A stretch of 62,512 nucleotides of DNA, counting the filler, from Kipferlia bialata (Eukaryota), in assembly GCA_003568945.1 (NCBI GenBank). It is 5 parts of 5 records of this genome, joined end to end, with 100 filler letters (N's around TTAATTAATTAA, not from the genome) between each part and the next. Parts side by side here need not be neighbours in the genome. Positions count along the whole stretch, not along the records: positions 14,782 to 34,276 come from BDIP01000419.1; 4 more parts are not named here. One strand, written 5' to 3'. Both the position numbers and the translations under genes were made by a program. Shown one piece after another: positions 10,058-51,105 of this stretch (its first letter is position 1; every line of letters begins with the position of its first letter). The notes under the pieces are model-generated. The model was not told where the DNA came from and did not search any database. It saw only the letters and a list, made by a program, of their open reading frames with translations.

Positions 10058-10094
<37 letters not shown>

Positions 10095-10225
10095 TTTGTT
10101 TTTTTTCCCCCCTTCCCCCCCCCCCCCCCCCCCCAGGTGCCTTTGTGGCTCTGGTCATCCTCTCTCCGCTTAATATGGAATAAGTTTTCCCTACTGCACT
10201 CCATTGATGTTTCTTCTTACTTCAG

Positions 10226-25419: not shown

Positions 25420-27053
25420 TCTCTAGACTCTTTTACCTCCAGTCCTGGCTGCTATGTCTGCCCCCTCCCAGCCTCTCTCTCTCTCTCTATATCCCTATAT
25501 TTACCTCCAGTCCTTGCTGCCATGTCTGCCCCTTCTCTGCATATCTCTCCCTCTCTCTATCTCTGTCTCTCTCTCTCTATATATATATCACTTCATATGT
25601 AGTCTTAACCTCAGTCCTTGCTGCCATGTCTGCCCCCTCTCAGTCTGAGTCCATCCCACCCCCTGCCCTGTCTGACCTGATGCCATCCATACTGGACACA
25701 CTGGTGATAGCAGGTATATACTATATATACTATACTATATGTGCTGTGTAATAGGTATAGTAAGTATATGTATATATATGTGTGTGTATATATGTATATA
25801 CCCCTGCCCTGTCTGACTTGATGCCATCCATCCTGGATACCTTAGTCATTGCAGGTTAGTAAATCTCTCTCTCTCTCTCTCTCTCTTTCTTTCTCTCTCT
25901 CTCTCAATGTGTATATACATGTATATACATGTGTATTTGTATGTATATAAGTCTATGTTCCTCACCCCCCCAGGTTTCATTGTGTCCCCCTCTCAATACT
26001 ACTATATATACTATATATACTATATATACTATATATATAATTATTTTTGTATAAATGTCTTGACCCCAGGTGGCATTGTGTCCCCCCTCTCTCGGTCCAT
26101 GACCATGGGACTGGCAATGGGACTACAGGTATGTACACATAACTGAATACACATTTGTTCTGTATGTGTGTCCACCCTCACCATCAGGCAGTTAGGGCAG
26201 TCGGATGTGCACTCCTGGGACCAAGGTAACACTCTCTCTACATTACATGGTCGTCTTAGTCTAATTCTAATAGTACTATTATACCTATTATACCCACCTC
26301 ACCTCAGGTTCAACCCCCTGCAGCCCATCATGCTCCTGGTATCTGTCTCTGTCTCTCTCTCTCTATCTGTGTTTTGGTATATATATATATATATTAGTAC
26401 ATCCATCTTACCTCAGGTTCAACCCCCTGCAGCCCATCATGCTCCTCGTCTCTCTCTCTCTATATATATATGTATATATGTATATATGTATCATTATATC
26501 CACCTAACCCCAGGTTCAACCCCCTGCAGCCCATCATGCTCCTGGTGTCATTTGTACTCAGACTCGGGGACACGGGGTCTCAGGTACTTAGCTATTTATG
26601 TACTATATACTATATATATATCAGGTGTGTTTGTATATATACATATGTAGAGTCCTCATATGTAGTAGATATATACATAGAACATGTAGTGTACTCAGTC
26701 AACATTCGGGGGCACAGTGTCTCAGGTGTGTATTCTACTTTCCTCTCTCTCTCTATGTATATGTATATTTATAGTATCATGATGTATCCTCATCCTCACC
26801 CCAGGTCAGGAGGTCCAGGAGAAAGACCCCCAAGCCCACTGAGAAGAGTGAGAAGGAGGGTGCTTCCACTGTTGTGAGGCAGGTTGCCCCCACCTCTAGT
26901 ACTCCCTCTGGTACCACACCCTCTACCAAGGGGTCTAAGAAGAGTGCTACCCCTACCAATGTACCCAAGACCCCCTCCACAGGCAGGGGTGGCAAGAAGG
27001 CTGCAATGCTGGAGACACCTGCTGTGACTGGGAGGAGGAGAAACAAGCACTAG
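24461..27053 (+). CDS. Multi-exon membrane protein with basic S/T/P-rich tail; possible TRIC/TMEM38-like; 5' end not found
   Basis: Spliced sequence: LIEPEASHLAKDLSVPFLIRDVVVW|WLAFYCPFEWPRKILQTR|AFVFVDGIISIPGDYAWLEMIVK|ALHQRGTPLYGTIMFSLIPGMACPMLMA|VLAAM...|FNPLQPIMLLVSFVLRLGDTGSQ|VRRSRRK...RRRNKH*. WWLAFYCPF resembles the TRIC WYLIFFCP motif (weak). Confidence 0.6.
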
Positions 27054-27457
27054 AGTGTGTAGAGAGAGAGAGAGAGAATTTGAGTGTGCGACGAGGAAGC
27101 AGTAGTGTGTGTGGGAGTGACATTGGTGGGATCTGCTCTCATACATGTGTTTGTATAGTTTTATATATGGTAACTAGATACACATGTATCAGGGAACAAT
27201 AGAAGGTGTTCAATTTGATAGTCCCAAAGGATCTCTCTATTACACACACCAGTCCCACATGACTCAGTCCCCCTCCCTCCTACTAGCGTAGACACTGCCT
27301 CAAGGGTCCAGTGGAACAGAGAGAGAACGAGACGTAGATTAGTTCCAAATCACCCTATCCCCCTCCCTCTCCAGGAATGCCCCCTCGACCAAGTGTTCAA
27401 GGGCAGCCTTAAGGGTCTAGCAGTAGAGAGAGAGAGAGAGAGAGAGTAAGAGATATC

Positions 27458-30400
27458 CTAGTCCCATATGACTCTGTCCCCCTCCCTCTCCAGGAATGCC
27501 CCCTCGACCAAGTGTTCTAGGGCAGCCTTGAAGTGGTCGTCAGAGAGTGCACACACACTCTCTCTCTCTGCACCCTCTGTACCAATATCACCACTGTTAC
27601 CAATGTTGACACCAATTAGTCTCTCTCTCTCCACCCACAGCCCCTGCACCCTCTGTCTGAGTACTGCTATGGACACACCCTCAGGGCTCTGCTTGACTGC
27701 CTTGCAGACAAGGGCACGGACTAGCTGCTGCACATCCACTAGGGGTCTAGAAGACACAGTAAGAGAGTCACTTCCTGTTGATGCTACACCCTTAGTCTCT
27801 GAGGGTCTGGCTGTACTGCTCATCACAATGTGAAGGGTCTCAACCTCTCCCTCCACCTCTCCCTCTAGCAGTGAGGACACCTCGCTCTCCTCTGCCTCAC
27901 TCTCTCTCTCTCTCTCTGTGCCCTCTACCCCATCACACATGACTACATCTGTATCCACTCCCCATCTGACACCAAAGGTCAGTGGGGTCAGGGAGATAGA
28001 GGACAGACCCCTAGGGTGCACAGTGAGTGTACCACGCTCCCTATCCCAGTTGATGAGAGATGGTCCCTCCCCAGACCCTGTCAGTGGCAGTATATGTGCA
28101 GAGAGAGTCTCTGGTGATACCCCTACGGTAGCATCGCGTAGCTTGGCAGCAGTGACACACTGGCCTGGCTGGGATAGCATGTATGTCATCACAGCATGTT
28201 GCAAGGGTGTCAGTCGCACTGTGTGTGTGGTTGTGGTGGTATCCCCTACTGCCATCTCCACTGATAGTGTCCCACTTACAGTGCTGCTAGAGACATGTAC
28301 TGGTGTAGTGGACCTTCTACCCTTCTCTCTCTTCATCTCAACGTCTGAAGCGTCTGGAACGTATGAAGCGTCTAAGAGAGTACCCAGGCATCTTGATAAA
28401 GCTACGCTCTCTCTGGATATGGCTGCGACAGCTGAGAGAGCAGGGGTCAGGTGAACTGCGCTCCCACTACCCGTGGTGGTGTCTACACCACTTACACTCT
28501 CTGTCCTATTAACAAATGCGGTGGTTGCCGCTATGTAGGACGGGAGTGGACACGAGACGTTGTTGAAGGGCACACTCACAACGTGGGTATCAGAGACAGA
28601 GACTCTTTGGACAGCACTGTCTCCATGCATACCCTCTCCATCCATCAAGGAACGTATCAGACGTCGGGCACTCTGTACAAGGGCCAAGACACTCACCCCA
28701 TCCCTCTCTCCCTCTCTCACTGAAGTAGGGGTGTCTCTCTCCGGTGCCAGTGCGAGTAATGCCACTTCAGTGTCAAGGGACACAGTCTGTGGTCTGGATA
28801 GATAGGCAACCCTTCTCCCTCTGCCTGTTGTGGTTGTTCTCTCTAGCACCATGCTGTGCATGTAGTCAAGGTACCTAGAGTGAGTATAGTAGTAGAGAAA
28901 AGCACATAGATATATATATATGTATATATGTATATATCTGCAATTAGTGTAGCTAGCACCATGCTGTGCATGTAGTCCAGGTACCTAGGGTGAGGGCAAG
29001 TTACATTCACACCAATATAACGTAGTACAGAGGCTGATGAACGAATAATGTACAATGTAGGGAATAACAAACCTAATCTCTAGCAAGCTGCAGTGACACG
29101 TCCAGTCATACACCAAGGGTGCAGTTCCACTCCTAGATGCACTAGTGGTACTGGGGGCTGGTGTCTTGCCCCCCTTCTTCCTCCTCTTTGCCCTCCTCTT
29201 CTCCCTCTCCCTCTCCCGATGCAGAGAGTCCTCGGCCTGGGGTGAGGCCACAAACACGTATAGAGTAAGAAGAGAGAGATAGATATATACATACTACATA
29301 TACATACCTCCACCCCCTCTGCCACCATGTCCTGTATGCACTGCAAACGTACTTACTCACCCTATATACTATATATGTAATATATATTCTATACTCTTCA
29401 TACAACATACACACCTCCACCCCCTGTGCCACCATGTCCTGTATGCACTGCATGATGCCCAGCCAGCCTGGGGTCAGATAGGATACATACGTATATACAC
29501 ATGTATTTTATGTATACTCATACATATATACTTATATATAAATACATATATATTGATATGTATGTATGTCTAGGTGTGAGATGATACTGGCATTCAGTAG
29601 GTATGAAGAGAGAGGATATCCTAACCTTGTATCCCAGCCACCTCCTGTGCCTTGAACACCTGTCTACAGGCAGTGTCCCACATGTAGGCAAGAACCTCTC
29701 CAACTCTATCCCTCTCACTCCCTCTCTCCGTATCTCCCTTGTACACTGTAGACACAACCCTCTTTGCCTCTCTCTCTAGAAGACCTCTCCCCTGAATAGG
29801 AGTCAGGGCAACCCAGGCTAGGGAGAGGATATTGAGGGTCTGGAGGGTTAGATGGTATACTTTCATATTATTATGTATGTGTGAATATATTTGCAGGGTC
29901 ATATGAATACATACGTGTCATGCGCCACTGTATAAGAGTAAGAATATGCACTACTCCTCTATATGTCATGTACCTGTAACACACGTGTGGGTATGTACCA
30001 CCCATATTCCTTGACACTCTCTCCCTCCCCCTCTGTCTGTGTCACAGTGTATCTGACACAGGGTCTGTCCATCCTGGGTTCAGTGGCATATATGCACATC
30101 ATTATACAATAGATATATGATAGTTAAGTTGTACCCTCACTGCTACAGCGGTGGTTAATGGACCCACACCTACATATGACATATAGATCAATGTGTCCCA
30201 TACCTCCCCCTCACTGCTGCACAGAGTGTCTCCCTGGCATCCTGCACCACAGTACTCTCTCCCTCTCCCTCTCCTTCTCCCTCTGTCTCTAAACCTGATA
30301 GAGCACTAGCAGCAGTGTCAAATAGAGAGGCAGCGGCACTGGATGTAAGAGACTGACGAATTACTACAAGGGGTTGATTTGTAAATTCTGATGTATATAT

Positions 30401-30846
30401 TTACCCATATACTTCCAGGAATACATACTCCTATCCCACCTGAATGCCGTGTGGTCCGGGAAGACAGAATAAAGTGTATAAGGCCATGTAATGAACTCAC
30501 ATACATTCAATATGTATATTCCCATATTAAATATATCTATGTATACCTGAATGCCGTGTGGTCTGGGAAGACAGAGGAACCCAATGCGGCATCCAGAACC
30601 TGTAATGAGTGTGATAGTAGTATATATGTATATTACATGTATAATGAGGTTTAGAATGTGACAGATATAACCAGAGCGGCATCCAGAACCAAATAATGAG
30701 AGTAGGGGGGATGTGCTATATGTTCAGTATATATACACATATATACTAAACGCACTATGTACACTATATATGCATGGTACCTCAGGCATCACCGCCACGC
30801 ATGCCTGCATCACAGACATATACTACATATGAATACTTAGGTATAC

Positions 30847-30889
<43 letters not shown>

Positions 30890-32243
30890 TATACCTCAGG
30901 CATCACCGCCACGCATGCCTGCATGACTAGACCTGCAATGGAGACAGACAGGCGCTGGAAGGTGTCCTAGTATGAGGAGAGAGAGAGACAGAGAACGATA
31001 CAGACGCGTGGTGATTACTATTAGGGGAGAGAAAGAGAGAGAGAGAGACAGAGAAAAATACAGGTGCAAGGTGTGGTATGATGTGGAGAGGTTTCTATAG
31101 TGCGCACCATATTCAGTAGACACACATGTAAGCATACACCTTATTTCTGTTAATACCTGTATATAATATATATATGTATATAATACATATATGAATATAT
31201 ATATATATACCTTGTTACTATTCCTCAGTGATGTCTTCCTGACATATGGCTGCACTGCCTGTGGGTATATATATATATATAATATACCTATACAATTATT
31301 GTATACCTATACAATTACCTATACCAATCTATATATACATACCTTATTACTGTTTCTGAGTGATGCCTTCCTGACATATGGCTGCACTGCTAATGGATCC
31401 ACCAACAGCAGTCTCCTCAGTGCCAGGTGGTGACTCTTGATGGCACTCACAAGCAGAGTCTCTCTCTCTCCCTCTGTAAAGGATGTCTCTCTCTCTCTCT
31501 CTCCCTCTGTATTGTCTGTATTGTCTCCCACTGGATCTATCCTGCACCTCTTTGATAGGGCTGTGGATAGGGACTGGGCCTTCCTTGGGGTCAAAGGGAT
31601 TTATAGTAATGTGTATGCATGAAGTAATAGTGCCACTCTGACCACGGTGTCACCGAGACTACTCACTATCCATGTATATACATGTATAGCATAACATGTA
31701 TATATACATATCATACCTTGGGTGTAATAACAGTCCAATCCTTATTATTGCCCTGACCAGGGTGTCACCATGTACATGTATATACAATATGAATATGTAT
31801 AGTACCTTGGATGAAGCAATAGTGCTATCCTTATTATTGCCCTGACCAGGGTGTCACCATGTACATGTACATATATATATGAACAGTGAATGATACATTG
31901 CTATTAGTATAGTACCTTGGATGCAATAGCAGTCCAATCCTAATTATTGCCCTGACCAGAGTGTCACCATGAGACCCAGGCATAGGGACAGACCTCTGGG
32001 TACCATCATCTCTGCACACTAGCCTACCACCAAGGCCGAAACAGGGTGTGCCAGTAGAGAAACTAGAGGACCCTCTATCGCTAGAGGGTTTAGATGCACT
32101 AGATTCACTGACTATGCCTGGAAAAGAACTGGAGGAGGAACTAGACCCTTTAGCACTGACTATGCCGGGTACACTCTCCATCAGACCGGTCAGCCACTTG
32201 GTACGGGCATTGCGAATGATATAGGAAGCAACACACACTTGGG

Positions 32244-32280
<37 letters not shown>

Positions 32281-32803
32281 GGTGACACATTCTGGACAAT
32301 AACATCCACATAGAAAGACATATCTAGTAGGGTATTCAATACGATAACTGTGTGTATCTGCCTATGAAACTCCAGTTGGTATCTCGAATCGAACATGAGT
32401 ATATACATAACTAGATCACATACATCAAATACAACAATATCTCAATTTACTTGAGGGTTACCTATCAGTTCCAGCTGGTGCCTGGAGTACTCGTCTGTGT
32501 AGCTATGGGTGAAGTGGTACATCTCTGCCCTCATGGCCGCATGCTCAACCTGGGAGTAAGGGTGTAGAGGGGGAGAGAGAGAAAAAGAGAGGGAGAGAGA
32601 GAGAGTAGTGTACATCTCAGACCGCATGGCGGCATGCTCAACCTGAGAGTGAGGGTATATATTGATATATGTATATATATATATATATGTATAGAGAGAG
32701 AGAGAGAGTTGGGTACATCTCTGCCCTCATGGCAGCATGCTCAACCTGAGAATAAGGGTATATATATATATATATATATGTATGTATATAGATATATATA
32801 CAT

Positions 32804-32835
<32 letters not shown>

Positions 32836-34039
32836 TAGTGTACATCTCTGCCCTCATGGCAGCATGCTCAACCTGAGAATAAAGGGTGTAGAGGGGGAGA
32901 GAGAGAGACAATGTGACAGAGACAATGAGAGAGGGAGAGAGAGTGGTGATAGTACCTCCCCCATCATGGACCGTGTCGGATATGGCTCAGAGTGGATGAG
33001 GTACCTTGGCATGAGTAATGGCGTGATATAGAGAGAGACAGTGAGAGGTAACGAGAGAGGATATGGCAAAGAGAGTGGCTGAGGCACCTGGGATGGGAAA
33101 AGAGTGGATAGGGAGAGAAAGAGATATAGATAGAAGGAGAGAGAGGCTCAGAGTGGATCTTGTACCTATGTGAGACATACTTGAGAAGGGAGAAGAAGAA
33201 GAAGAGAGAGAAAGGATAGGGCTATGAGTGGATGATGAAAGGGGGGGGGGGGGGGGAGGTGAGGGGGGGTATACTCACAGATATATACATACAGATACAT
33301 ACCCGAAGACTACAAGATACAGGGGCATTACACAGTCCAATGATCGTGCCATGGTCAATAGGGACTGGGTGGAACATGAACCAGGGGTGCTGGAGGCTAA
33401 AGATGAGAGAGACTCTCTCAGATAGAGGGGGGGAGGGGGGGGGAGAGAGAGGGTGAGAAATGGAATTCGATAAACTAGAATTGGAGGAAGAGGAGTGGGG
33501 GGTAATGAACTTGTGTCAGAACTGGATATGCGGTAGACGGGGGAGGGGGAGGGGAGGGGGGGGGGGGTTAAAGTATAATCATACACCCACCTGCTATCTG
33601 TGGAATAATTGTCCCCCTCAGATAGACCCTGAGCACATGTTCATAGGAGAGGGGCACTGTACCCCCACCATCTTTCATACCCCTCTGCACACAGAACATG
33701 GGTAAGTCCCTGACTATAGATACGGTCTGGGCAGTGAGGCTGGACAGTCTGGACATGTCTACAGGGACTCTCTCTCTCTCTCCCTCCTTTCCCTCTGCAT
33801 CTGGGGTATCCTTGGAGCTGTGTGCCTGTAGAGCTGCCTTGATCAGGCTCTTGAGACCCTTGCGGTGGGACCTGGTGTCATGTATATATGTAGTATATAC
33901 AGCACAGAGAATATCACCATATAGATATATACTTCACACTGTGGAGTACCACACACCTTATATCTGGCACTGCGTTGAGCTGGTCTACTAGAGTGTGCAC
34001 ATCGGGTTCTAGGTGCTCTGAGGGTGAGGAATGAGCCAT
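27458..34039 (-). CDS. Large multi-exon protein with a cullin-like C-terminus (divergent cullin/APC2-like)
   Basis: The long last exon (27458-28872) has VRLTPLQHAVMTY, LVRALVCKAVKQ and FKAALEHLVEGAFLEREGDRVIWD*. These resemble cullin VSTYQMAVL, IDAAIVRIMK and IESLIEREYLER. Many upstream GT-AG exons extend to about 34039; the start is uncertain. Confidence 0.6.
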
Positions 34040-34276
34040 AACATGAGGGTCATATATATATAGACAGAGACACTCAAACGTAATACATATACACACTGCT
34101 ATGCCATCAACGCAATGAAAATACAATTCCACACAACACAGAGGCTGTATAGTGAATACGCACTTCCCAGCAATGACATGTCATTATCCAGTAGGGCAAG
34201 AGAAGAAAAAGAAGAAGAAGAAATCTATGTTTTTGGCGGCTATCAAGCCTAGCCCCTTATGTGTTATATAAATATT

Positions 34277-34376: not shown

Positions 34377-34432
34377 CTTGATGCCATTGTGGGTGGCCAC
34401 ATACATGATGGCCTGGGGTTAGATATATATAT

Positions 34433-34468
<36 letters not shown>

Positions 34469-35319
34469 TGATGCCATTGTGGGTGGCCACATACATGATG
34501 ATTGCTGGATTTAGATAGATAGATATATAGATAGGGAAGGGGAGAGAGAGAGAGAGGTTGTGATGTTACTGTGTGCGGCAAGTAGCGAGATGGCATATGG
34601 TGGGAAAGAGAGATATAGGGAGAGGAATATGGGAGAATCATGTATGGAATATATATATTCACATATTGCAATATATACACAAATATAGACACAGACAGGG
34701 AATAGAAAGGGAGAGAGTATTTGTAGCCATGGGTGACAAGACACACATTCAATTATACACACACACTATACTTGATACCTTGTAGCAGAATGCGGTCTGG
34801 GTCATATCACAGTATAGACACACAAATGTATACTATCTATATACACATTAGTAAGTAAGGGTATAACAACATAGATATATAAATAACTGCACATATATAC
34901 CTTGTAGCAGAATGCAGTCTGGGTCACTCTGTTATACCAATTACTATACACATAGAGTATAGAGACATTATATAAACCACAACACACAAGTATATATTAT
35001 ATATTTACATATTAGTATCAGTATAAGTATATACCTTGTAGCAGAATGCGGTCTGGGTCACTCTGTTGTAACAGTACTTCTGGATCAGGGCAGAGATCTG
35101 GGCCTTCCTGGGATGAGGAATATTTAGGTATACATATATATATACAATACACATAGAGAGAGAGAGAGAGAGTATATCTGGATGAGGGCAGGGATCTGGC
35201 CATTCCTGGGGTCAGTTGCATATATAGTATATATGCAGAGCGAGAAAGCGAAGGGAAGGGATAAATGGAGACATATCCTACCAAGGGGGAGAGCAGAAGC
35301 GAGACTCTCTCACTCTCTT

Positions 35320-35369
<50 letters not shown>

Positions 35370-35538
35370 CATGAATACATATATATACATACCTCTCATT
35401 GGGTGGCAGTGGCTCCTGCTCTGCTATGGCCAGTTTGTATGTATATCTCTCTATATATATATATATATCTATATATATATATATATATACCTCTCATTGG
35501 GTGGCAGTGGGGTCCTGCTCTGCTATGGCCAGTCGGTC

Positions 35539-35590
<52 letters not shown>

Positions 35591-36919
35591 CATATAATTA
35601 CATGTTTATACATACCTCTCATTAGGTGGCAGTGGCTCCTGCTCTGCTATGGCCAGTCTGTCTGCATCTCTCTCTCTCTCTATATATATATATGAATACA
35701 TATATATACATACATATATATATACATACCTCTCATTGGGTGGCAGAGGCTCCTGCTCTGCTATGGCCAGTCTGTCTGCATACATGGCAGCTATCTGCTC
35801 AGGGGTCTGGTTACGAAGACACAGCCTATAATTAGGAGATGTAGCAGAGAGAGAGAGAGAGAGAGAGGGGGAGAGAGAGCTGCATACACATGTCGGCTAT
35901 ATTCTCAGGGGTCTGGTTACACAGACATAATACATAATGAGAGGAAGGCGGAAATACAAGGATATAGAGGGAAGAGGGGAGGTGCAGTAAATGCACATGA
36001 CAGCATAGACAAACGCATTGAGAGAAAGACAGATGAGGGCGAGATGGAGATTGAGATGCATATGTAGGTATGCTAAGGGGGAGGAAGGGGGTGATGTGGG
36101 GATGCAGGGGTGTGTGGGTGTGGGTGATAGAGAGAGAGAGAGAGGTGAACACATAGCCACTGGGATGTATGTATCGTCTCTCTCTCTCTCTGTATGGGTG
36201 ATGAGTGTTGGAGAGGGAGAAGGGAGTATGTAAATCTCGTGTGTCCAGAATATTGATAGAACAGCAGCACATCAATGCATTCTAGTGGTAACATAGTGTA
36301 TGATAGCGAATACAACGAATGTATGGAGTAGGAGAGAGTAGGAGAGAGAGAGTACCCACCTCTTGCAGCACCATTTGCCAGCATAGGATGGGCCAGACTT
36401 CTTCTGCTTCTCGGGCTTCACATCCACCTCAGCCTCTGTCTTGACCTCCTCTGGCTTGAACTCTCTCTCTCTCTCAGCCTCTCCCACCCCTGGAACCATC
36501 TCAGTCTCAGGGGCCTTCTTCTCTCCCTCTCCCTCTGCCTCTCCCTCTCTCTCCTTGACTAGCACCACCTGCTCCTCAGCAGTTTCAGCCACAGCAGTCT
36601 CTCCGGCCTCAGGCGCTGGCTGCTCTCCCTCTCCCCCTGCACCAACACCCTCCACCTCCTCTCTCTCTCCTGAGGGTATCATATCAGTATCGGCACCAGC
36701 CTCTCCCAGTGCACCAGCAGAGAGAGTACCATCTCCAGAGGTGGCAGGAGGCTCCCCTGTCTCAGGGTGTGCATGGGTAGGTGTGGGTGCACCCAAGCCA
36801 GACAGGCTGATCACAAGGGGTGCGACAGTGGTGCCCCCAGACTCAGAGGCAGCTGGGGCCTTGGAGACACCGGGGGCCGCGGAGCCTTGCTCCTCAGGCC
36901 TTCCCTGGGCCTCGGACAT
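34377..36919 (-). CDS. Hypothetical protein (3' truncated), acidic N-terminus followed by one CC-x-C module
   Basis: The first exon runs from ATG 36919 to ...[12 protein letters not shown]. Later exons give [62 protein letters not shown]. One small linking exon was not resolved. Confidence 0.6.
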
Positions 36920-37702
36920 TCCAGTCTGCTATCAAGTGTATTACAATACAGACCAGGCTTGGCGTGGGGGGCTGACAGAGAGTGTACACGCTCAATGGGC
37001 TGGACAGCTGGAGTTTTTGACCTAGTTGGTCTGCACCCTTTCTGCATTGAGCGACAGCTGCCATGCTATCTTGCAATCACCGTCAGTTTAGGGGGAAAGC
37101 ATTACTTCACAGCACTAACAACCTCCATAGGAGTACCAGTTACTTGGGTGGTACACTTGGGTGCTTTTTGACTGGCGAAGGAGCGTTTCTCAGGTATTCA
37201 AATCAAATTGTCTTGCTGTTATGTTGTTTCTGGGTCCTTCGGGATGGGTGTAACGTTGTACCGGACGTATATTGATGATGATGTTGTTATAGCTCGTCAA
37301 TGAACGGCTGGATGAGAATTGGATGAGTGTTATGGGTTGTGATGGGTGTCGACCTATTCCTCTTCTGTCCTCTCTTACCAGTACCGTTGTGGTGTTTATA
37401 ATGTGGTAAAGGCCAGTATCTAGTGGCTGTCTCCGTATATCGTATATGCGGTCGAAGGAGAGGGAGGTGGTGGATGGAAGGGGGCGGTGTATATATATGC
37501 ATATTGTCTTGTGATGTGAGCATTGGGGGTCACGTGTCTCATATCAACGTATACGTGCCACGCAAGCACATATTTGCGGTGTGTGTAGCAATATACCTAT
37601 ACTTGTGAGGGTTAATGCCACACCCCCCCCCTCCCCTCTTTCCAGGTCTCTCTCTCTCTCTCTCTTCTAATAGATTCGATGACTGCTGCTGACTGTAGGC
37701 AT

Positions 37703-40700
37703 ATGGACGGAGGGTCGCGTGCCCCTGCCAGAGGGTGGGAGAGAGGCGCCCAGAGAGCACCACAATCCAGTCGAGACACAGAGACTGCGTGGAGGAGGGA
37801 GAGGGAGAGGTACTCTCAGTCGGGTCCAGAGACCAAGGACCGGAGCCTCGACGCCTACCGGGACAGGCTGAGAGAGAGACAGAGGGAGAAGCAGCAAGAG
37901 GCACCACCCCCTGCGCCTGCCCCTGTAGCTGTACAGGAGGATGAGGCCGAGAGCAGTGAGTCTGAGGTGGTACAGTACGTTGCCACCTCGCTGCCTGTTG
38001 CGGCACCTGCATCTGTACAGAGAGTGGTAGAGAGAGGGGGGGAGAGAGGGAGAGACGCTGCTCGTGTTGATGACTACTGGGCCCGGGAGAGAGAGAGAGA
38101 GCAGAGGAGGGGCTATGACTCCAGGGAGTCCTCTTCATATGGCTCCAGTGGCAGATACCCCAGGGAGAGGGAGAGAGATATGGGGAGGAGAGACAGCTGG
38201 GGTAGGCGTCAGGAGTATGACAGGGAGCGGGGTGCCAGTAGCAGGTCCCAGTACCCTGCCTACTCTGACAGCAGTAGGTCTCGCAGGGACGAGTACTCCC
38301 CCAGAGACAGATACCCTCGGGAGAGGTACGATGAGCGTACCTCTCGCCCTGCCTATAGGAGTCAGCCCTCTGACTACTATGACCGGCATCCCCAGGGCAG
38401 GGTCGTGGAGAGAGACCCCTACCCCAGGGAGAGGTCTAGACCAGTGGAGCCTAGGAGGCAGGGCTGGGAGGGCAGTGACCCCAGATCCACAGGGTACCCC
38501 AGGGAGCAGGAGAGGACACAGGTCCGTTACCCTCCCTTCACCACTCCTGCCACGCACCATCATGTCCCTGCACCTGCCCCTGCATATGCATCTCCTGCCT
38601 ATGTCTCCCCTACTGCTGCCCCTCACTCTGTACCCAGGGTGGCCACTGGATGGGGTCTACAGCACCCATCTGCCGCTGTGCATGAGGTGCCCTCAAGGGA
38701 GGCGTCGAGGGAGGTGTCTCCTGCTAAGGAGGCGGGGAGCCGGGATGTATCCCCACTGGCTGTATCTCACCTCATCAGGTTGGTGTATTACAATGATGAA
38801 CTCTATTTGTTCCGATATTCACCTCAGCTCTGGTGTGCACCAGCGTCAGCCCCACTACTCGTCGGCCGCATCTCCCCCCTCCAACCGCCCTGCTGCACGT
38901 CAGCTTGCCCCTTCCCCTCCTAGGCAGGCTGACACCCGCCCTGGTAAGCATGATGTTGACACCCGTCATAGGGTCATGGCCAGTCCGCTCCTTCTGAGCT
39001 CTGAGGATGAGAAGCGTCAGACCAGGGCGGTAAGCCCGTCTCCATCCTCCATCATCACGCCAGGTCAGTGTGCTTTACTGGAAAAGTACGAATAGCTAGA
39101 AGTGTCATATCCCTGTGGCAATCACTCTTATCCCAGCTCGTTCTGATCCAAACTCCAGCAGGGACGCATTGCTTCTAAGGTTAGTACACTGGTTGTGACC
39201 ATACATTCGAGTATTTAACCATTATTGTCGCTAATGAGTCACTCAACTCCAGGGACGTTGCGATGGCTCCCGGAACCAAGGAGAAGCTCGGCAATGAGGA
39301 GGTCGCCAAGACCGGCAAGAGCCTCGTGAGCATGCGCCTTGACAGCCTCAAGAAGAAGAAGGCTCGGGAGAAGAGAGAGAAGGAGAGGAAGCAGCGCGAG
39401 GAGCAGCGCAAGGAGAAGGAGAGAGAGGAGAGAGAGCGGAAGCAGAGAGAGAAGGAGGATCGGGAGAGAGAGGAGAGGCAGAAGGAGCGTGAGCGTCTCA
39501 AGCAGAAGGAGGCAAAGGAGAAGAGAGAGAGAGAAGCCAAGGACATTGACGACCTCCGTCTTAGAGAGGAGCTTAAGAAGAGAGAGCTGAGGATGGAGAA
39601 GGAGCGGGCCCGTGCTGCTGAGAAGAAGAGGGGTCACGATCTGAAGAAGAGATCCGACAAGGAGAAGCGGAGAGAGAAGAAGGAGAGAGAGGAGAGGGAG
39701 AGGAAGAAGGAAGAGGAGATTCGTGCAGAGAAGAAGCGCAAGAGAGCAGAGCGCAAGCGGAAGGAACAGGCGAGACTAGAGCGTCAGATGGAGAGGGAGA
39801 GGTTGGAGGAGGAGGAGAGGGAGAGAAAGGCGGAGAGAGAGAGAGAGAGACAGTTGAGGAGAGAGAGGGAGAGAGATATCGAGATGCAGGAGGACGTGAT
39901 CAGCGAGTCCGAGGAGTCTGAGGAGTCTAGTGAGGGCGTTGACTACGATACCCTCTTCGACACCAAGTGCTGTGCACCTGCCAAGAGAGGGGACGGCGGG
40001 TACGTAAGTGGATAACACACTCTATTTATATATACAAATCTCACCGCTAGCGCCTGTCTTCACCGCACCAGCATGGATGAGCGCCAGGAGCTCACCCAGT
40101 ACATCATGGACATTGACGCCGAAATCAGAACAAGGTTAGTAGTGTATTGTGATGCCAAAATGACGATTATATCATCATTCAACTGTTGTTCCTAGGTACA
40201 TTCCGTTGTATTTACATCATGCTCACTGACAGGGTTGCTGATGGCGAGGGTCCCGAGGTCGGCATCCGTTCTGAGCTCTATCTGCCATTTGTCAGAGAGT
40301 TCTTTGAGGATAGAAACGATCACAGGATGTACTGCGACAAGGTATTGTTCATTATCCACAGATTCTGTGAGCTTCATTGCAGGTACTTATCTTATACCAG
40401 GCTATATCCACGGTCACCGGTCTTCTGCCTGGTGAGGTCCAGAAGATCAGGAACAGGATCAGAAAGGCATGTGTATGTGATATGTACTATTTCTCATGTC
40501 TTGGTCTTCCTCTCACAACCAGGAACGCAGAGCTGGCCGTGTCACAGAGAAGTGGAACCGGAAGCTGCCAGACACTCCTGTCAGGAGGGCATCCAAGCCC
40601 GCCAAGGTTAAGGTTGCTCCAGCTGCTTCAACCCCCAAGGTCACTCCCAAGAAGGCCCCTGTCAAGAAGACTCCTAAGTCTACACCTAAGAAGACCCCCA

Positions 40701-42318
40701 AGACCAAGGCCACTCCTGCTAAGAAGAAGGCACCATCTCTGGCCAAGGCTGTTCGGGAGAAGCAGAAGAAGACAACTTCTAAGGGAGCGTCGAAGGTGTC
40801 TGCTCAGGGCAAGAAGCCGGAGCCTCGGGTATCTAGAGCACAGTCCAAGCGGGAGAGAGAGCCGGCAGAGGAGGAGGAGTCCTCAAGTGAGGGCATCGAC
40901 TACGACACTCTCTTCGACGGAGAGTGCTGCAAGCGTGGGTACGTAGCATGTCATACACATATACGAGACAATATACATAGATATCACGCCCTTGTATTCT
41001 TACTCCAGACGTTGCCTAGTGACCACCCCCCAGCAGGAGAGAGACGCCCTGATCGAGGAGATCCACACCATCGACACCGAGTATGAGGGGATGGACAAGG
41101 AGCACACACAGGCCGTGGAGGCATACATCGCCAAGCACTTTGTGGACAGGAAGGACGAGAAGGTCTACTGCGCCAAGGTAGGAGACTATATCTATTTACC
41201 TTATTATGTGTGCATTGTGTGGTGTGGTATTCTGACCCCAGGCCATCTCCACCATCACTGGTCTCAGGGAGGCACAGACCAAGCTGGTCATCAGGAAGAT
41301 CAACCAGGTACAATATACATATACATTCACATATAGTTGATAGATCAACCTGCCGGGTACAGTGTATGTGTACGATATACTGTTTGGTGTTATATAGATA
41401 GTCTTACATCAGGCCAGCATCCTGGCCTCCAAGCGGAGGAAGAGGACCCCTGCCCAGTCCCACAAGGCGTCTCTTTCTGCCACACCCACCGTCAAGCCTG
41501 CCAGTGTCACTATATCCAGTCCCAAGGACAAGGTTGCTGACACCAATGGTGATGTTGGTGTGAAGAAGGAGCACGCATTGCTAGTTGTCGAGTTCGAGAC
41601 TGAGCCTGCTGCATCACAGCCTGAGAAGCAGAAGGATCATGTTGTGGAGGCTAAGCACAATCCTCCCATGACAGTAGACTCTGCCACACACGGTGACGGC
41701 ACTCTTCTTGTGGACCCCATGGCCACAGAGGACACTGCAAGGCCCAGTGGCGCGACTGTGAGAGCTACTGGCGGCTCATCTCCCGTACTTCATCCTTCAC
41801 ACTCTCAGAACACCAAGGACGTCCCACCAGTCACCGTTGAGCCGGATGTACCAGTTGCCCCATCTCCCCCTGTTGTTCCTACCACTCCCTCTGAGGTCCC
41901 CATGGAGACACTTCAGATGCTGGCTGGTGGTAAGACAGCAGATGGTGACTTCCTCTACCTGTACAAGGGGGACATGGCACCTGAGAGGACAGAGGTGGCA
42001 TCCTGTGTGGAGATACCCCCAGAGGTGCAGAAGTACCTGCCTCAGCCCACAGTCTATCCAGCTCCCTCGGGTACTAGTGTCACTGCTGGTGTTCTTGCTC
42101 TGTCAGGTACTGACTCCTTGGGTGCTAGTGCTGTCTCTAGTGCTGTCAAGGAGGAGAGCAAGCATGGCCCTACAGTGTCAGTCCCAGCTGAGAGGGAGAG
42201 TGAGAGCCCGTCTCTTGGCCAGAAGCGCCCCAGGTCCGTCACACACTCCAAGGCTGCATCATTCAGCCCCATTGGGCCCCACCTGAGACAGGCAAAGAGA
42301 GTGCCAGAGGACCAGTGA
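37703..42318 (+). CDS. Large hypothetical protein: RE/RY-rich N-terminus, K/E/R coiled coil, two CC-x-C modules, histone-H1-like KKTPK linker
   Basis: Long exons joined by short introns. The two internal repeats are DYDTLFDTKCC...ACLHRTSMDERQEL...FVREFFEDRNDHRMYCDK|AISTVTGL and DYDTLFDGECCKRG|RCLVTTPQQERDAL...YIAKHFVDRKDEKVYCAK|AISTITGL. Stop at 42316-42318. Confidence 0.75.
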
Positions 42319-42667
42319 GACTCATTGGATTCTGTTTGATTTGGATTTGAGTTCAGGTTGAATTCTCATTGAGAATTGTTTCCCTCGTCCTCTGACTGAG
42401 AGACTCAGTTGTTGAGTATATTCAGTATTGTTTCTAATATATTGGTAGTGTCACTCAATCGTTGGGCAATATGGTATGCAACTCTTCATGTGATATGCTA
42501 CTACTTGATATGTAGGAGTGGTAGACGTTGTTTCTCCGTATGAGTCAGGTTTTGACTATATATATATCAACCTTACTAGTGCAAATGATATGCTACATGT
42601 CTATTGTTACTGTTTCTTGGTGGGAGACGTCTCCATCTGGGAGTATCTAGATGGCCCATCCACCCTC

Positions 42668-45600
42668 TCACTGTCCCTCACACGCACAGTGCGGCGCCTG
42701 AAGTTGCTGCCCCTGGCAGTGCCATGGGGCCTGGGGTGAGAATGGTCTGAGTACTGAATGCATACTACTATCTATACATATTAGAGTACCAACCTTGGCC
42801 CCGATGGCGGCAGTGGTGTGTAGCAGGTGCTGAGGATGGACCTGACCTCAGACAGCACACCGTCCCCTGGCCTCTCTCTCTCTCTCTGCCTGCCCTGGGT
42901 GGTCCTGGGTGCTCTCTCTCTCCCCATGTCTCTCTCTCTCTCTCTCCCTGAGCCCTGTCCGCCCTGTGACTTGGTGCCCTCTCTCTGGGCATCGGCTCTC
43001 CACTGCTTGACGTCTCTCTCCATCTCTCTCTCCCTCTCCCTCTCCCTCTCTGTCTCAGTCTGTGTGTCCTCAGATACAGGGGACGCTGGAGAGAAGATGC
43101 TCTGCTGGGTATCTCTCTCTCCACCCTCTCTCTCTCCCTCCCTCTCTCCCTCTTCCTCTGAGGGTGTGTAGTCAGAGCGGCCAGTGTCTGGGGACATGTC
43201 GTCAGACTCATCCTGAGGGTGAGTAGCAAGTCCGTACTCAATACAAATGTATATATAGATATAGATATAGATATAGATATATAATATATAAATAATACCT
43301 GCCCCCCACTCATCCAGGACAGTGTCACTGGTTGGGGCAGGGCTATCCTGGGTCTCTCCCTGGAGACACTCCTCTCCCTGGAGGAGTAGAGACGGTCCTC
43401 AGTCACGCTGGGGGTAAGACACTACATAGATATACTACAATAGAGCTAGAGAGAGATGCCCCACCTGAGCTGTGCCCTCCCTCCTAGGACAAGTGATGGT
43501 GTCAATAAGGGGCTGTTATCCCTCATGGGCAGGGGTGACTGGGAGTAGCCCTGGGTCTCTCTCTCCCTCTCCCTCTGGGGCATGTCTCTCTCTCTCTCCC
43601 TCTCACCATCGAGGGTGGGTCTGGGGGTGGGAGGCAGACGATGCAAATATAAGAGTTGTGCCACTATTAATTCCTAGTAGCTTGAGAGAGAGAGACCTCT
43701 TACCTCCCCTCCATGGGTCTGGGTGCACTAGTGTACGTTTCTTGTACATACTATATACATATACATATACCCACCTCCCCTCCATCGGTCTGGGTGTGCT
43801 CCTAGCACTGTCTGCCTCCACTGCTAGGGGGGCAGGCCTCTCGATGGTCATGGGCTTGGACCGGCTCACACTGCTGATGTCAGGAATATATATAGATATA
43901 GATATAGACATATATGTATACAACGATGGGCTTGGACCGGCTCACGCTGCTGGGGCTGAGTAATTATACAGTAATATTACGATATATACATTGAGATATA
44001 TACATCAGGGGGGTATCATATGCTAACACTGCTGGGGTAAGGACATGAATTGACCTATGAAGACAATTGACAAATCGTGTGGAATAGTGTGTTGAAAATG
44101 GACTCGACTACATAATGGCTACCGTAATTGATATAACGATACGTATACACACACCTGCTGTGGAGTACTGCCCTCTGCCCCATGAAGTCTGGGTTCCACT
44201 CTCCATCCCTGGTGGCCATGGACTCGGGGTGGTAGGACTGGGATAAGATGGTATACATGTATATATCCATACTCATATATGGTATACACTGTACCTGAGT
44301 AGGTATGGCCGATGGCTGCACCCTCTTGTCGACCCTGAAGACTGGTATGTCGACAGGGCTGTCACTGGCTGCCACCCTCTCTCTCTCTCCCCCTTTCTCT
44401 CTCTCTCCCTCAAGTGCACCCTCTCCCATGGGCACTATGGGTATCTCCTCACTCACTCTCTCCTCCTCTACCTCAGAGTGCTCTCCACCGTGGCTCTCGG
44501 CCTAGGGAGTAAGACGCATATCATATATAGTACTTAACATGTATACATACATACCTCTGGGGTGTCCCCCTCCTGGGGTAGGTCTGAGACAGGTCTGTCA
44601 ATGGTGTCGGTGCCCAGCCAGTTGCCAACCTAGGGGTGATGTGAATGCAGTGCACTATAGATCCAACGTACGTAGGGTGAGGATGATAGAGAGCTCAGAC
44701 AACTGTACACTGATACCAACCTCATCGTCGTCTGAGTCGAAGAGGTCACCCGAGAGAGACGACCCATCCTCCATGGCAGAGGACTCCTCTCTCTCCCTCT
44801 CCTCTCTCTCCCTCTCCTCTCTCTCCCTCTGCTCAGCCTCCTCAGCCTCTCTGGCCCTGGCTCTCTCCTCCTCCTCTAGCCTAGCAACCTGGGTATCAGT
44901 ACAAGCTTGTGTATGAATACATACTAACATATATATGTATAAACAGAGAGAGATATATATAGAGAGAGAGACACAGCCTGGTTACCTCGGCCTCAAGAGC
45001 AGCCTCGTCTCTCTCCCTCTGCCTCTCTCTCTCCCACTTGGCGAGGGCCTCTCTCTTCTCAGCGAGCTCGGCTTCTCTATCCCTCTCCTTCTCTCTCTCT
45101 CTCTCCTCCTCCTCCAGTCTCTCTCTCTCTCTCTCTCTCTCAGCAGCAGCCTCCGCCTCGGCTACCCTCTCTGCCTCTCTCTGCCTCTCCTCCTCTCTCT
45201 CTGCCTCTCTAGCAGCGTCAGCCTCTCTCATCCGCTGCTGCATGTTGGCCTGCTCCAGCCTCTCCATCTCAAGGGAGGCCTCTCTCTCTCTCTCCCTCTC
45301 TCTCTCCCCCTCAGCCTCTCTGGCCTGTAGGGCGGCAGTCGCACGGGCCAGACGCTCCTGAGAGGCCCTCTCCTTGGCATGCTGCCTCTCTCTCTCCCTC
45401 TCCCTCTCCTCCTCAGCGAGTCTCTCCACCGCTCTCTCTCTTTCTGCCTCGGCCTCTGCCTCTGTCTCTGCCTCGTGGTCATTCCCGACATCCTGAGGTG
45501 GGTACAAGGGTATATATATATAGAGAGAGACAAATATAGATCTATATGGTTATGTGTACAGAAATGTATATGGTCACTCTCGGCATCCTGAGGTAGGGTT

Positions 45601-49027: not shown

Positions 49028-51105
49028 AGAGGGGACCTGGGGGTGAGTGCTAATACGTGCACTAAATATTTCTAGAATATACCATGTGTGAAGAGTACCA
49101 GTGGTGAGTACCAGTAGTGAAAACGTGAGTATCTGCTACCATATGAGTAGTACATGATACAAATATAGAGACGGTAGTAATAGAATACAACACATACCTC
49201 CTCCAGTCCGTCTATGGGGGTGAGTATACACATAGTATAAATATATATATATATACATATATATACGTATGATCTAACGTGTATGTATAAACCATGCCAT
49301 ACCTCCTCCAGGCCGTCTATGTAGTATAAATATATATGTATATATATGTATATATATTCTATGACCCACCTCCTCCAGCCCGTCTATGTAGTGTGTGTAG
49401 TAGTCCCCCCTCTTGGACTTGGTCTGGGGGCTGGGGGGTGAGGAGAGAGACAGTACTACATATTCTATATACTACATATATATATGTACATACACATATA
49501 TATATATGTATTCACACTTCATCTTGGACTGGGGGCTGCGGTGAGGGAGAGACGTCGGGACAGAAACACGACATACTATGGATATATACATATAACCATA
49601 CCTGTTCCCCTCTCCTTCTATGTATGCCTCACTGTCCTCTGTGTCTGATGACATGTATACTATAATACAATATATACATAGTGTGTGCACTCTATAGAGT
49701 ACATATAGTATATACCTGTTACCCTCCCCCTCCCCATATGCCTCACTGTCCTCTGTGTCTGATGATACATGCATATATATATACATATACATACACTAGA
49801 GTATATAGTATATATATATAACTATGCCTATCTTATACCTATTTCCCTCCCCCACTATGTATGCCTCACTGTCCTCTGTGTCTGATGGCATCCATACAAT
49901 AATACAATATATACATAGTGTATACACTCTATACAGCTATGCACCTGTTTCCCTCTCCTTCTCCATATGCCTCACTGTCCTCTGTGTCTGAGGGCATGTG
50001 TATATATATATACATATACATATACCAATGTATATATAACTATATGTATACCTGTTCCCTTCTCCCTCTATGTATGCCTCACTGTCCTCTGTGTCGGATG
50101 ATACATACATATATATATATATACATGTATACTATGTCTATATAATAATATATACCTATTTCCTTCCTCTGCATATGCCTCACTGTCCTCTGTGTCTGAT
50201 GGCAGGGGAGGGTCCATGTCAGAAGAGTACATCACAGCTGGGGGTGAGACACTTATACATGTATAATCATAATACAGAGAGGGGAAGAGAAAGAGAAGGG
50301 GGATCCATATCAGACGAGTACATCACAGCTGGGGGTGAGACACTTATACACGTATAATCATAATATATAGAGGGGGAGAGAAAGAAAGAGAAGGGGGATC
50401 CCTGTCAGACGAGTACATCACACCTGGGGGTGAGAGATCACAATCATAATATATATATATGTAGAGAGAGAGAGACATATAGGGGGGGAGAGAGAGATAC
50501 TCACTTGTTGTAGATGCCCTGTTCTCATCCAGCGTGTACATGGATGTCCGGGACTCCTTGAACTTCTCATAGATGGTGGTGTACTCCTCCTAGGGGTGAG
50601 ATGATAATGATGGTATTCACAGTATAGAATATACATATATACGATACCAGTTTATGGAAATGGTAAGATGGTGGTGTACTCCTCCTAGGGTGAGAGGGTA
50701 CACATGGAAGTATATTCCTATAGTGGAAGAGAGAGAGAGAGAGAATGGCTGTATTCTTGAACTTCTCATAGATGGTGGTGTACTCCTCCTAGGGGTAAGG
50801 GTATAGAAATAGACATACACACACACATATATATATATAAATATGTACGATATCAGAACATGGGAATCGTTAGACAGATAGAGAGAGGGAGAGAATACAT
50901 GCATTTGTGAAGACTTGTCTGGTACGTCTGGTGCAGTTGGTATACAATACATACTACATATAGTATATACTAAATAGTATATATATAAATATATATTTAC
51001 AATATACATACCTCTGTGATGTCCCCTGTCTGGTACATCTGATGGAGCTGGGCAATGTCATCCTCGGTGGGGATGTACTCACCTGGGTATGAGTATATAG
51101 TATGT

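What the first reader, a model, noticed from the sequence alone, without database searches (positions are those of the whole stretch)
27250..27532. Echo of a stop-codon region: the phenomenon is not limited to splice sites
Seen on the - strand: the last 24 codons of the cullin-like gene (KAALEHLVEGAFLEREGDRVIWD-TAG, about 27529-27458) are repeated in the 3' flank at about 27410-27339. The changes are CTA>CTT, GAC>GAT, AGA>AGG, GTC>GTG, ATA>ATT, TAG>TAA and one D>N. Even the stop changes synonymously. A shorter decayed copy lies at about 27250-27280. Inference: echoes form at coding/non-coding boundaries in general, which favours a DNA-level mechanism over a spliceosomal one.
Basis: partly seen in the sequence, partly recalled or inferred. 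Interest (0 to 1): 0.7.

Follow-up and report, generated by a model that had tools for sequence, protein, structure and literature searches.

The report
Silent-site echoes of exon edges
In this intron-rich protist the last 24 codons of a gene are repeated in its untranslated tail, one of about 60 short non-coding copies of exon edges in 62 kb that differ from the working sequence mostly at silent positions, likely because recombination keeps overwriting them with other alleles of the same gene.

Summary
Confirmed. The last 24 codons of a cullin/APC2-like gene (deposited protein P0001, named Kipferlia bialata) recur 119 nt downstream with 6 synonymous and 1 replacement change, and a decayed third unit follows. 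An RNA contig reads unspliced from copy 1 through its stop into copy 2, so copy 2 is 3' UTR in the main transcript and the repeat is real. It is the only stop or start case (1 of 12 stops, 0 of 8 starts) among about 60 families of ~100-nt tandem echoes, almost all at splice sites. Across 93 echoes pN/pS is about 0.2 (bootstrap 0.13-0.33), below the 0.5 expected for a dead copy beside a constrained exon, while the flanking intron DNA is nearly unrelated. In a toy simulation, same-chromosome conversion gave 0.55-0.78; unequal exchange between diverged alleles reproduced the data and predicts synonymous diversity of about 0.15-0.2. A DNA-level origin is supported; "all coding boundaries" is not shown. 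The allele source is inferred, not observed. This scan noted similar echoes before in sea-urchin DNA (unchecked notes). Paper searches found no description for this species.

The parts
27458..27529 (-). Copy 1: last 23 codons plus TAG of the cullin/APC2-like gene (coding end)
   Evidence: Deposited protein P0001 ends here; RNA contigs 13 and 12 cover it without gaps
27424..27448 (-). (CT)n tract in the spacer; likely microhomology partner of CTCT at about 27546 in the exon
   Evidence: microhomology role inferred
27417..27419 (-). TAG just before copy 2, acceptor-like
   Evidence: PWM score 4.8, above 8 of 45 real acceptors; RNA contig 12 crosses it unspliced
27339..27410 (-). Copy 2: echo in the 3' UTR, 6 synonymous + 1 replacement difference, ends in TAA
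   Evidence: RNA contig 12 reaches 27369
27358..27398 (-). 41-nt block identical to 27477-27517 (homogenised tract)
   Evidence: separate contig in DNA run X1 at depth 886 vs 402-451 for neighbours
27249..27310 (-). Copy 3: decayed unit; 5' end like copy 2's junction, 3' 31 nt closer to copy 1, middle lost
27458..34179 (-). Host gene, 16 exons, 1119 aa, cullin/APC2-like; 10 of its 30 splice boundaries also carry echoes
28953..28994 (-). Example splice-site echo: acceptor plus first 32 nt of the last exon inside intron 15, one synonymous change
   Evidence: RNA contig 13 stops at the proximal acceptor 28877
25801..25855 (+). Strongest example elsewhere: exon-end echo with 8 synonymous and 0 replacement site differences in 53 nt
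   Evidence: frame from my gene finder

Best explanation
Copy 2 is a real ~119-nt tandem duplicate of the gene's coding end that lies in the 3' UTR of the main transcript, and it likely looks like coding sequence because misaligned recombination keeps overwriting it with the working end of other, synonymously diverged alleles. Shown: tandem structure; read-through RNA; about 60 such families in the window; pN/pS about 0.2; flanks nearly unrelated even where the exon part is identical. Inferred steps: (1) slippage or microhomology at (CT)n/(TA)n tracts makes ~100-nt duplications, and those that straddle an exon edge are tolerated because the extra copy falls in an intron or UTR; (2) the microsatellite-rich spacers diverge fast, so only the exon-derived part keeps enough homology to pair; (3) that part pairs out of register with the live exon edge of a homologous chromosome and is converted or crossed over, so it carries changes that already passed selection in another allele; (4) replacement changes build up only in the short time since the last refresh, and the far end erodes into microsatellite.
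For:: RNA contig 12 (149 nt, 0 differences, 0 gaps) runs from copy 1 through TAG and the CT tract into copy 2; contig 13 (3337 nt) matches the 3330-nt spliced CDS plus 7 nt; 98 repeat hits at offsets 60-145 vs 0 and 2 at control offsets; 93 echoes in 61 families, 133 synonymous vs 80 replacement differences; deduplicated 115:78 against a null share of 0.36-0.43 (P 6e-11 to 3e-6); S and N rates uncorrelated (rho -0.06); 4-fold sites 82 of 417 vs 0-fold sites 62 of 1737; at 2-fold third positions 36 S vs 10 N, at first positions with a silent option 8 vs 3, so the pattern follows the genetic code and not just a 3-nt rhythm; frames from the deposited protein alone give ratio 0.13 (P=4e-5); intron-side flanks score 0.46-0.47 vs 0.41 for unrelated introns, exon parts 93-94% identical; replacement changes lie toward the far end (P=0.005) and lean GC>AT, synonymous ones do not (P=0.01). 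Stop echo is mosaic; inter-allele exchange at theta 0.1-0.15 gives pS 0.19-0.25 and pN 0.05. Fornicates lack NHEJ and Rad51A and have two Dmc1 paralogs (PMC8516963 passages); Dmc1 tolerates mismatches (PMC7809202, search listing).
Against: No second allele or relative was found: P0001 is the only hit, the metagenome scan was empty, and DNA run X1 lists no other letters in 2 kb (laid at 93% likeness, and contigs drop variants). The model needs synonymous diversity of about 0.15-0.2, which is very high (own knowledge). Five silent changes in the last 7 codons is extreme even then. The simulation is a per-site toy with parameters chosen to match pS, not a fit. A test for microhomology at junctions window-wide was negative (15 of 68 vs 33 of 152). 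Frames outside P0001 come from my own gene finder and reading.
Confidence: 0.5

Rival explanations
1. Copy 2 is a minor or condition-specific alternative terminal exon, spliced from a phase-0 donor at 27556 to the TAG at 27417 (140-nt intron), and translation keeps it synonymous.
For: Acceptor score in the lower fifth of real acceptors; in-frame donor with score 1.6 (real minimum 1.0); stop kept as a stop; contigs drop rare forms.
Against: RNA contig 12 crosses the acceptor unspliced at depth 30 vs 41 for the coding contig. The TAG and frame are explained as decayed exon sequence with small indels. It cannot explain the partial echoes elsewhere: only 3 of 93 have a usable AG|GT switch point.
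Confidence: 0.13
2. Echoes are kept by gene conversion or collapse with the neighbouring exon on the same chromosome, and replacement changes in the echo are purged indirectly because copying them back is harmful.
For: Identical 41-nt block and mosaic copies; identical exon parts with unrelated flanks.
Against: All 4 simulated settings gave pN/pS 0.55-0.78, outside the observed 0.13-0.33.
Confidence: 0.12
3. Echoes are read as coding templates by an unrecognised route (non-canonical splicing, template jumping or rare DNA excision between the direct repeats), so selection acts on them directly.
For: Amino-acid-level conservation, including two-step Leu-to-Leu codon changes (3 of 12 multi-site codon changes); splice dinucleotides kept in 24 of 25 donor and 35 of 42 acceptor echoes; no snRNA candidates were found in this species (PMC6679479 passage).
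Against: The 3337-nt RNA contig is unbranched, with no other letters over the part laid. DNA contigs bridging the copies are about as deep as the flanks (404 and 412 vs 402-451; depth is a poor measure). Some echoes carry stops or frameshifts (4 stops).
Confidence: 0.13
4. The echoes are relics of a past hybrid or long-diverged diploid state: homeologous copies were joined in tandem during loss of heterozygosity, once, not continually.
For: It would explain high local silent divergence without present-day hyperdiversity; S and N are uncorrelated.
Against: 18 of 93 echoes are identical to the exon and ages look continuous; arrays of up to 6 units exist; no second gene copy was found.
Confidence: 0.07
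5. Ordinary one-off tandem duplication followed by neutral decay; the silent bias is chance plus synonymous change in the live copy.
For: For this echo alone P is only 0.019; copy 3 shows 3 replacement-type changes and no silent ones.
Against: Rejected window-wide (P 6e-11 to 3e-6); flanks should stay similar when exon parts are identical, and mostly do not.
Confidence: 0.04
6. Assembly artefact: two haplotypes placed in tandem.
For: Synonymous differences are what alleles show; the window has gaps and poly-C stretches.
Against: One RNA contig joins both copies with the spacer; read-built DNA contigs show the shared block at about twice the depth and single-depth bridges (X1 may be the source of the window).
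Confidence: 0.01

Closest known systems
Human F7 intron 7 37-bp VNTR spanning the exon-intron boundary (PMC1557585, abstract seen)
   Same: Head-to-tail copies that straddle an exon edge and repeat the splice site; the exon-contiguous site is the one used.
   Different: One locus with homogeneous units. Here there are about 60 families in 62 kb, spacers are unrelated, divergence is code-biased, and one case covers a stop codon.
Internal tandem repeats at exon-intron boundaries in human paralogs (PMC2812944, abstract seen)
   Same: Tandem repeats at exon edges reshape gene structure.
   Different: There they make new introns or amino-acid repeats. Here the deposited model and the RNA contig length leave the echoes out of the CDS.
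Intron gain by tandem duplication of an AG|GT segment (PMC3265369, abstract seen; model recalled)
   Same: Short local duplication of exon sequence.
   Different: It needs an internal AG|GT switch point, found in 3 of 93 echoes and not in this one. The echoes lengthen existing introns or the UTR instead of creating introns.
Tandem exon duplication with mutually exclusive or alternative terminal exons (recalled)
   Same: Neighbouring copies differing mostly at silent sites.
   Different: Most echoes are 15-78-nt partial exon edges with a single splice site; the main RNA reads through this one unspliced.
Concerted evolution of tandem duplicates by gene conversion and unequal crossing-over (recalled)
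   Same: Homogenised tracts, mosaic copies, variable copy number.
   Different: One partner is non-coding, the homogenised part is only 25-55 nt, and the low pN/pS needs an inter-allelic donor in my simulation.

Membership tests
Boundary-spanning tandem repeat (F7 IVS7 type) | Head-to-tail units whose first element straddles a coding/non-coding edge | tested here: met
Boundary-spanning tandem repeat (F7 IVS7 type) | The exon-contiguous copy is the one used in the transcript | tested here: met
   contigs 12 and 13; main form only
Boundary-spanning tandem repeat (F7 IVS7 type) | Units alike along their whole length (minisatellite) | tested here: not met
   flanks 0.46-0.47 vs 0.41 control; 4 of 67 above the control's 99th percentile
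Boundary-spanning tandem repeat (F7 IVS7 type) | Copy number varies between individuals | not testable with these tools
   no second isolate found
Alternative terminal exon from exon duplication | Acceptor before the copy and an in-frame donor upstream | tested here: met
   weak sites: acceptor above 8 of 45, donor score 1.6
Alternative terminal exon from exon duplication | Spliced transcript joining into the copy | tested here: inconclusive
   contig 12 crosses the acceptor unspliced; contigs drop rare forms
Intron gain by tandem duplication | AG|GT switch point inside the duplicated segment | tested here: not met
   3 of 93 echoes, not this one
Concerted evolution by conversion / unequal exchange | Homogenised tract and discordant relationships among copies | tested here: met
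   1 difference in 53 nt then 6 in 19; copy 3 shares its junction with copy 2 but its 3' end with copy 1
Concerted evolution by conversion / unequal exchange | Donor identified as another allele; variants shared across isolates | not testable with these tools
   only one genotype available
Cullin / APC2 family (host gene) | Cullin alpha+beta and C-terminal winged-helix domains | tested here: inconclusive
   no cullin Pfam or PDB sequence hit; language-model features score 0.92 to APC2 and cullin clusters, 195 of 256 shared

The most novel reading that the evidence does not exclude
The introns and UTRs of this free-living fornicate are an archive of other alleles: a mismatch-tolerant, Dmc1-only recombination system constantly copies exon edges from diverged homologues into ~100-nt tandem echoes. 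One genome would then record hyperdiversity and frequent inter-homologue exchange (cryptic sex), and its introns would grow mainly by this route.
Probability: 0.4. Interest if true: 0.8.

Novelty: new variant of a known kind. Interest (0 to 1): 0.6.

Why it matters
Non-coding copies that evolve like coding sequence (pN/pS about 0.2) at a large share of exon edges are not expected from duplication and decay. If the allele-exchange reading holds, population diversity and recombination in a lineage whose sexuality is uncertain could be read from a single assembly, and intron length would be shown to grow in ~100-nt modules seeded at exon edges. If instead echoes are used as templates, that would be an unknown form of RNA or DNA processing in an organism where snRNAs were not found. 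In practice the echoes mislead gene finders (mine spliced many in). The stop-codon case adds that the process does not need a working splice site.

Tried and rejected
No whole genome was held, so all counts are for this window only.

RNA run X2 has no contig over 27230-27368 and no joint in the stretch laid. A part without cover is no evidence; it would fit a 3' end near copy 2, but short tips are pruned from contigs. Runs X3 and X4 laid nothing. No holder was on record as RNA; I read X2 as RNA because contig 13 stops at the acceptor where the DNA contig goes on, and its length fits the spliced CDS. Only 26810-28895 was laid, so splicing of the other echoes is unobserved.

Homologue searches: none at near length, only P0001 at longer length, none for a second gene, only P0001 among 1.84 billion representatives, none in metagenomes. 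PDB sequence hits were chance-level.

Period modulo 3 shows no in-frame bias (27/31/40), so use of the distal site with the spacer included was rejected. A recombinase triplet-stepping rhythm was rejected because differences follow the code. Junction microhomology enrichment was not found window-wide. 'Echo-specific' changes (30 S: 27 N) were not counted as proof of selection on echoes, because a younger sister echo can mispolarise them.

Left out of the S/N count: 5 of 64 families (7 and 11 too short, 54 frame unclear, 56 gapped possible micro-exons, 62 intronic); family 1 was merged into family 0 and one merged family was split. The frame of family 63 was changed from my first pick (3 N) to the gene finder's (3 S); one search shows ratio 0.20 before the change.

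My gene finder over-predicts and was used only for frames and gene ends; the starts and stops are putative.

Full report
Observation. Gapped alignment shows three head-to-tail units. The echo begins about 15 nt further upstream, at a CTCT shared between the exon and the (CT)n tract after the stop, with small indels; unit 3 shares copy 2's junction but is closer to copy 1 at its 3' end. One difference lies in the first 53 nt and six in the last 19 (P about 0.002), and 41 nt are identical. The copies are therefore mosaic.

Host gene. The last exon matches one deposited protein at 100%, P0001, 1119 aa, named by NCBI as a Kipferlia bialata hypothetical protein. It ends with copy 1. An exact spliced alignment gives 16 exons and 15 GT-AG introns of 85-406 nt. 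Pfam and PDB sequence searches show no cullin hit. Language-model features of residues 650-1119 score 0.92 to APC2 and cullin clusters, so 'cullin-like' is a lead and not membership. No relative was found.

Real and untranslated in the main transcript. Four coded runs were laid on 26810-28895. In X2, contig 13 (3337 nt) covers 28877-27488 without gaps and stops at the proximal acceptor of the last exon. Its length equals the spliced CDS to that point (3330 nt) plus 7, so I read X2 as spliced RNA and the upstream echoes as excluded from the main form; only the last exon was laid, so this rests on length. Contig 12 (149 nt, no differences, depth 30 vs 41) runs from copy 1 through TAG, the CT tract and the acceptor-like TAG into copy 2. 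In DNA run X1, which may be the window's source, the shared 41-mer has depth 886, the two bridging contigs 404 and 412, and the flanks 402-451. This fits a true tandem repeat, not two haplotypes. Contigs drop rare forms, so a minor spliced form from a weak phase-0 donor at 27556 to the TAG at 27417 is not excluded.

One of many. A masked diagonal scan found 147 repeat pairs in 64 families: 98 hits at offsets 60-145 against 0 and 2 at control offsets, mean period 103 nt, mean length 37 nt. Read by eye, nearly all are an exon start with its acceptor or an exon end with its donor, copied into the adjoining intron. In the host gene 10 of 30 splice boundaries have one. By contrast, 1 of 12 putative stops (this one) and 0 of 8 putative starts have an echo. 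The stop case shows that a working splice site is not required, but not that all coding edges are hit equally. This one has an intron-like (CT)n tract.

The anomaly. Without any gene model, 150 of 294 mismatch pairs lie in the same codon phase, against 93 +/- 7 expected (0 of 5000 permutations). With frames, 93 echoes in 61 families carry 133 synonymous and 80 replacement differences (pS about 0.20, pN about 0.04); the bootstrap ratio is 0.13-0.33. The right null is not 1 but about 0.5, because the live copy adds only silent changes. Deduplicated counts (115:78) reject it at P 6e-11 to 3e-6 for ts/tv ratios of 1-4 (estimated about 1). The 16 echoes framed by the deposited protein give 0.13 (P=4e-5), and 31 echoes in four conserved-looking genes give 0.21. 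Two-fold sites favour the silent change (36:10 at third, 8:3 at first positions), so the signal is the genetic code. S and N rates are uncorrelated across echoes. N changes lie toward the far end and lean GC>AT while S changes do not. Intron-side flanks are barely more alike than unrelated introns (0.46-0.47 vs 0.41), even in most echoes whose exon part is identical. One-off duplication with neutral decay does not fit. For the stop echo alone the excess is modest (P=0.019). Rows left out and one frame change are listed under Tried and rejected.

Mechanism. Direct use by splicing would need an AG|GT switch point inside the repeat, present in 3 of 93, and periods show no in-frame bias. A per-site Wright-Fisher toy model gave pN/pS 0.55-0.78 in 4 of 4 settings with same-chromosome conversion only, and 0.17-0.38 in 7 of 7 settings with exchange between chromosomes. 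At theta 0.1-0.15 and 2-3 exchanges per 2N generations it gave pS 0.19-0.26 and pN 0.05-0.07, with synonymous diversity 0.16-0.21. Parameters were chosen, not fitted. I therefore favour this sequence: birth by local slippage or microhomology (inferred; seen at this junction, not enriched window-wide); fast loss of spacer homology; then repeated out-of-register exchange with the live exon edge of other alleles. For this locus that reads as a crossover or conversion ending in the shared 41 nt, with copy 2's last 19 nt taken from another allele's working end. Fornicates are reported to lack NHEJ and Rad51A and to have two Dmc1 paralogs (PMC8516963, passages), and Dmc1 is mismatch-tolerant (PMC7809202 and PMC11514202, search listing only). 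This makes such exchange plausible but does not show it. Against it: no second allele is visible and the required diversity is very high (own knowledge).

Known systems. The nearest is the human F7 intron 7 minisatellite that spans an exon edge (PMC1557585, abstract), with tandem repeats at exon-intron boundaries in human paralogs (PMC2812944, abstract) and intron gain by duplication (PMC3265369, abstract). It works like the first and fails the whole-unit-homogeneity test; it fails the switch-point test for the last. The species' genome paper reports 124,912 introns and has no occurrence of 'duplicat' in its main text (PMC5874029, passages and methods section). Another paper found no snRNA candidates in this species (PMC6679479, passages). 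Searches found no description of these echoes or of their silent bias. The library lacks most subscription journals and I did not read supplements, which could bear on this. Two unchecked notes of this scan describe similar echoes, one with only silent differences, in sea-urchin DNA; these are leads only. Nothing was noted for this genome or sequence.

Verdict. The stop-codon echo is a genuine but single example. Its interest lies in the window-wide pattern it belongs to: abundant non-coding copies of exon edges that diverge like coding sequence. New variant of a known kind; interest 0.6; best mechanism 0.5.

Noticed in passing
window 15439-15975 (-), 49622-50204 (-), 35388-35782 (-), 32516-32885 (-): Echo arrays of 4-6 units inside single introns. 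In the 49.6-50.2 kb array the extra units carry one more codon than the exon copy and each has a possible CAG acceptor and GT donor (43-nt candidate micro-exons).
   Followed up: partly
window 26287-26544 (+): Three copies of an acceptor plus 36 nt, two of them ending in GT: the best candidates for truly alternative small exons.
   Followed up: partly
acceptors throughout, e.g.: Acceptors share a compact CTNACCCCAG-like motif, suggesting a branch point fused to the 3' splice site; donors are variable GT(A/G)NNN.
   Followed up: partly
window 27050-27350: Convergent genes: a plus-strand gene stops at 27053 and an RNA contig covers it to 27208, leaving copies 2-3 in a gap of about 250 nt between the two 3' ends.
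   Followed up: partly
window 27550-27640 (-): A ~30-residue GA-repeat-rich stretch just before the echoed helix begins with a weak GT donor and could be a retained old intron or a microsatellite insertion.
   Followed up: no
window 10059-10134, 14800-14823, 18755-18777, about 52690, 53940: Long poly-C/G runs, often beside N gaps, look like sequencing or assembly artefacts; one separates an upstream gene from a sodium/hydrogen exchanger (Pfam hit) that seems to lack its start.
   Followed up: no
window 36300-43000 and 53000-59000: Regions with long exons or short introns have almost no echoes (1-3 families per 5 kb vs 5-12 in most other bins).
   Followed up: partly
window 21600-23700 (+), 52100-53000 (-), 15390-18700 (-), 34400-36900 (-): Neighbours: FGGY kinase and ubiquitin-conjugating enzyme; Brix-domain and topoisomerase I labels for the other two are recalled resemblances, and short exons gave no Pfam hit.
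   Followed up: partly
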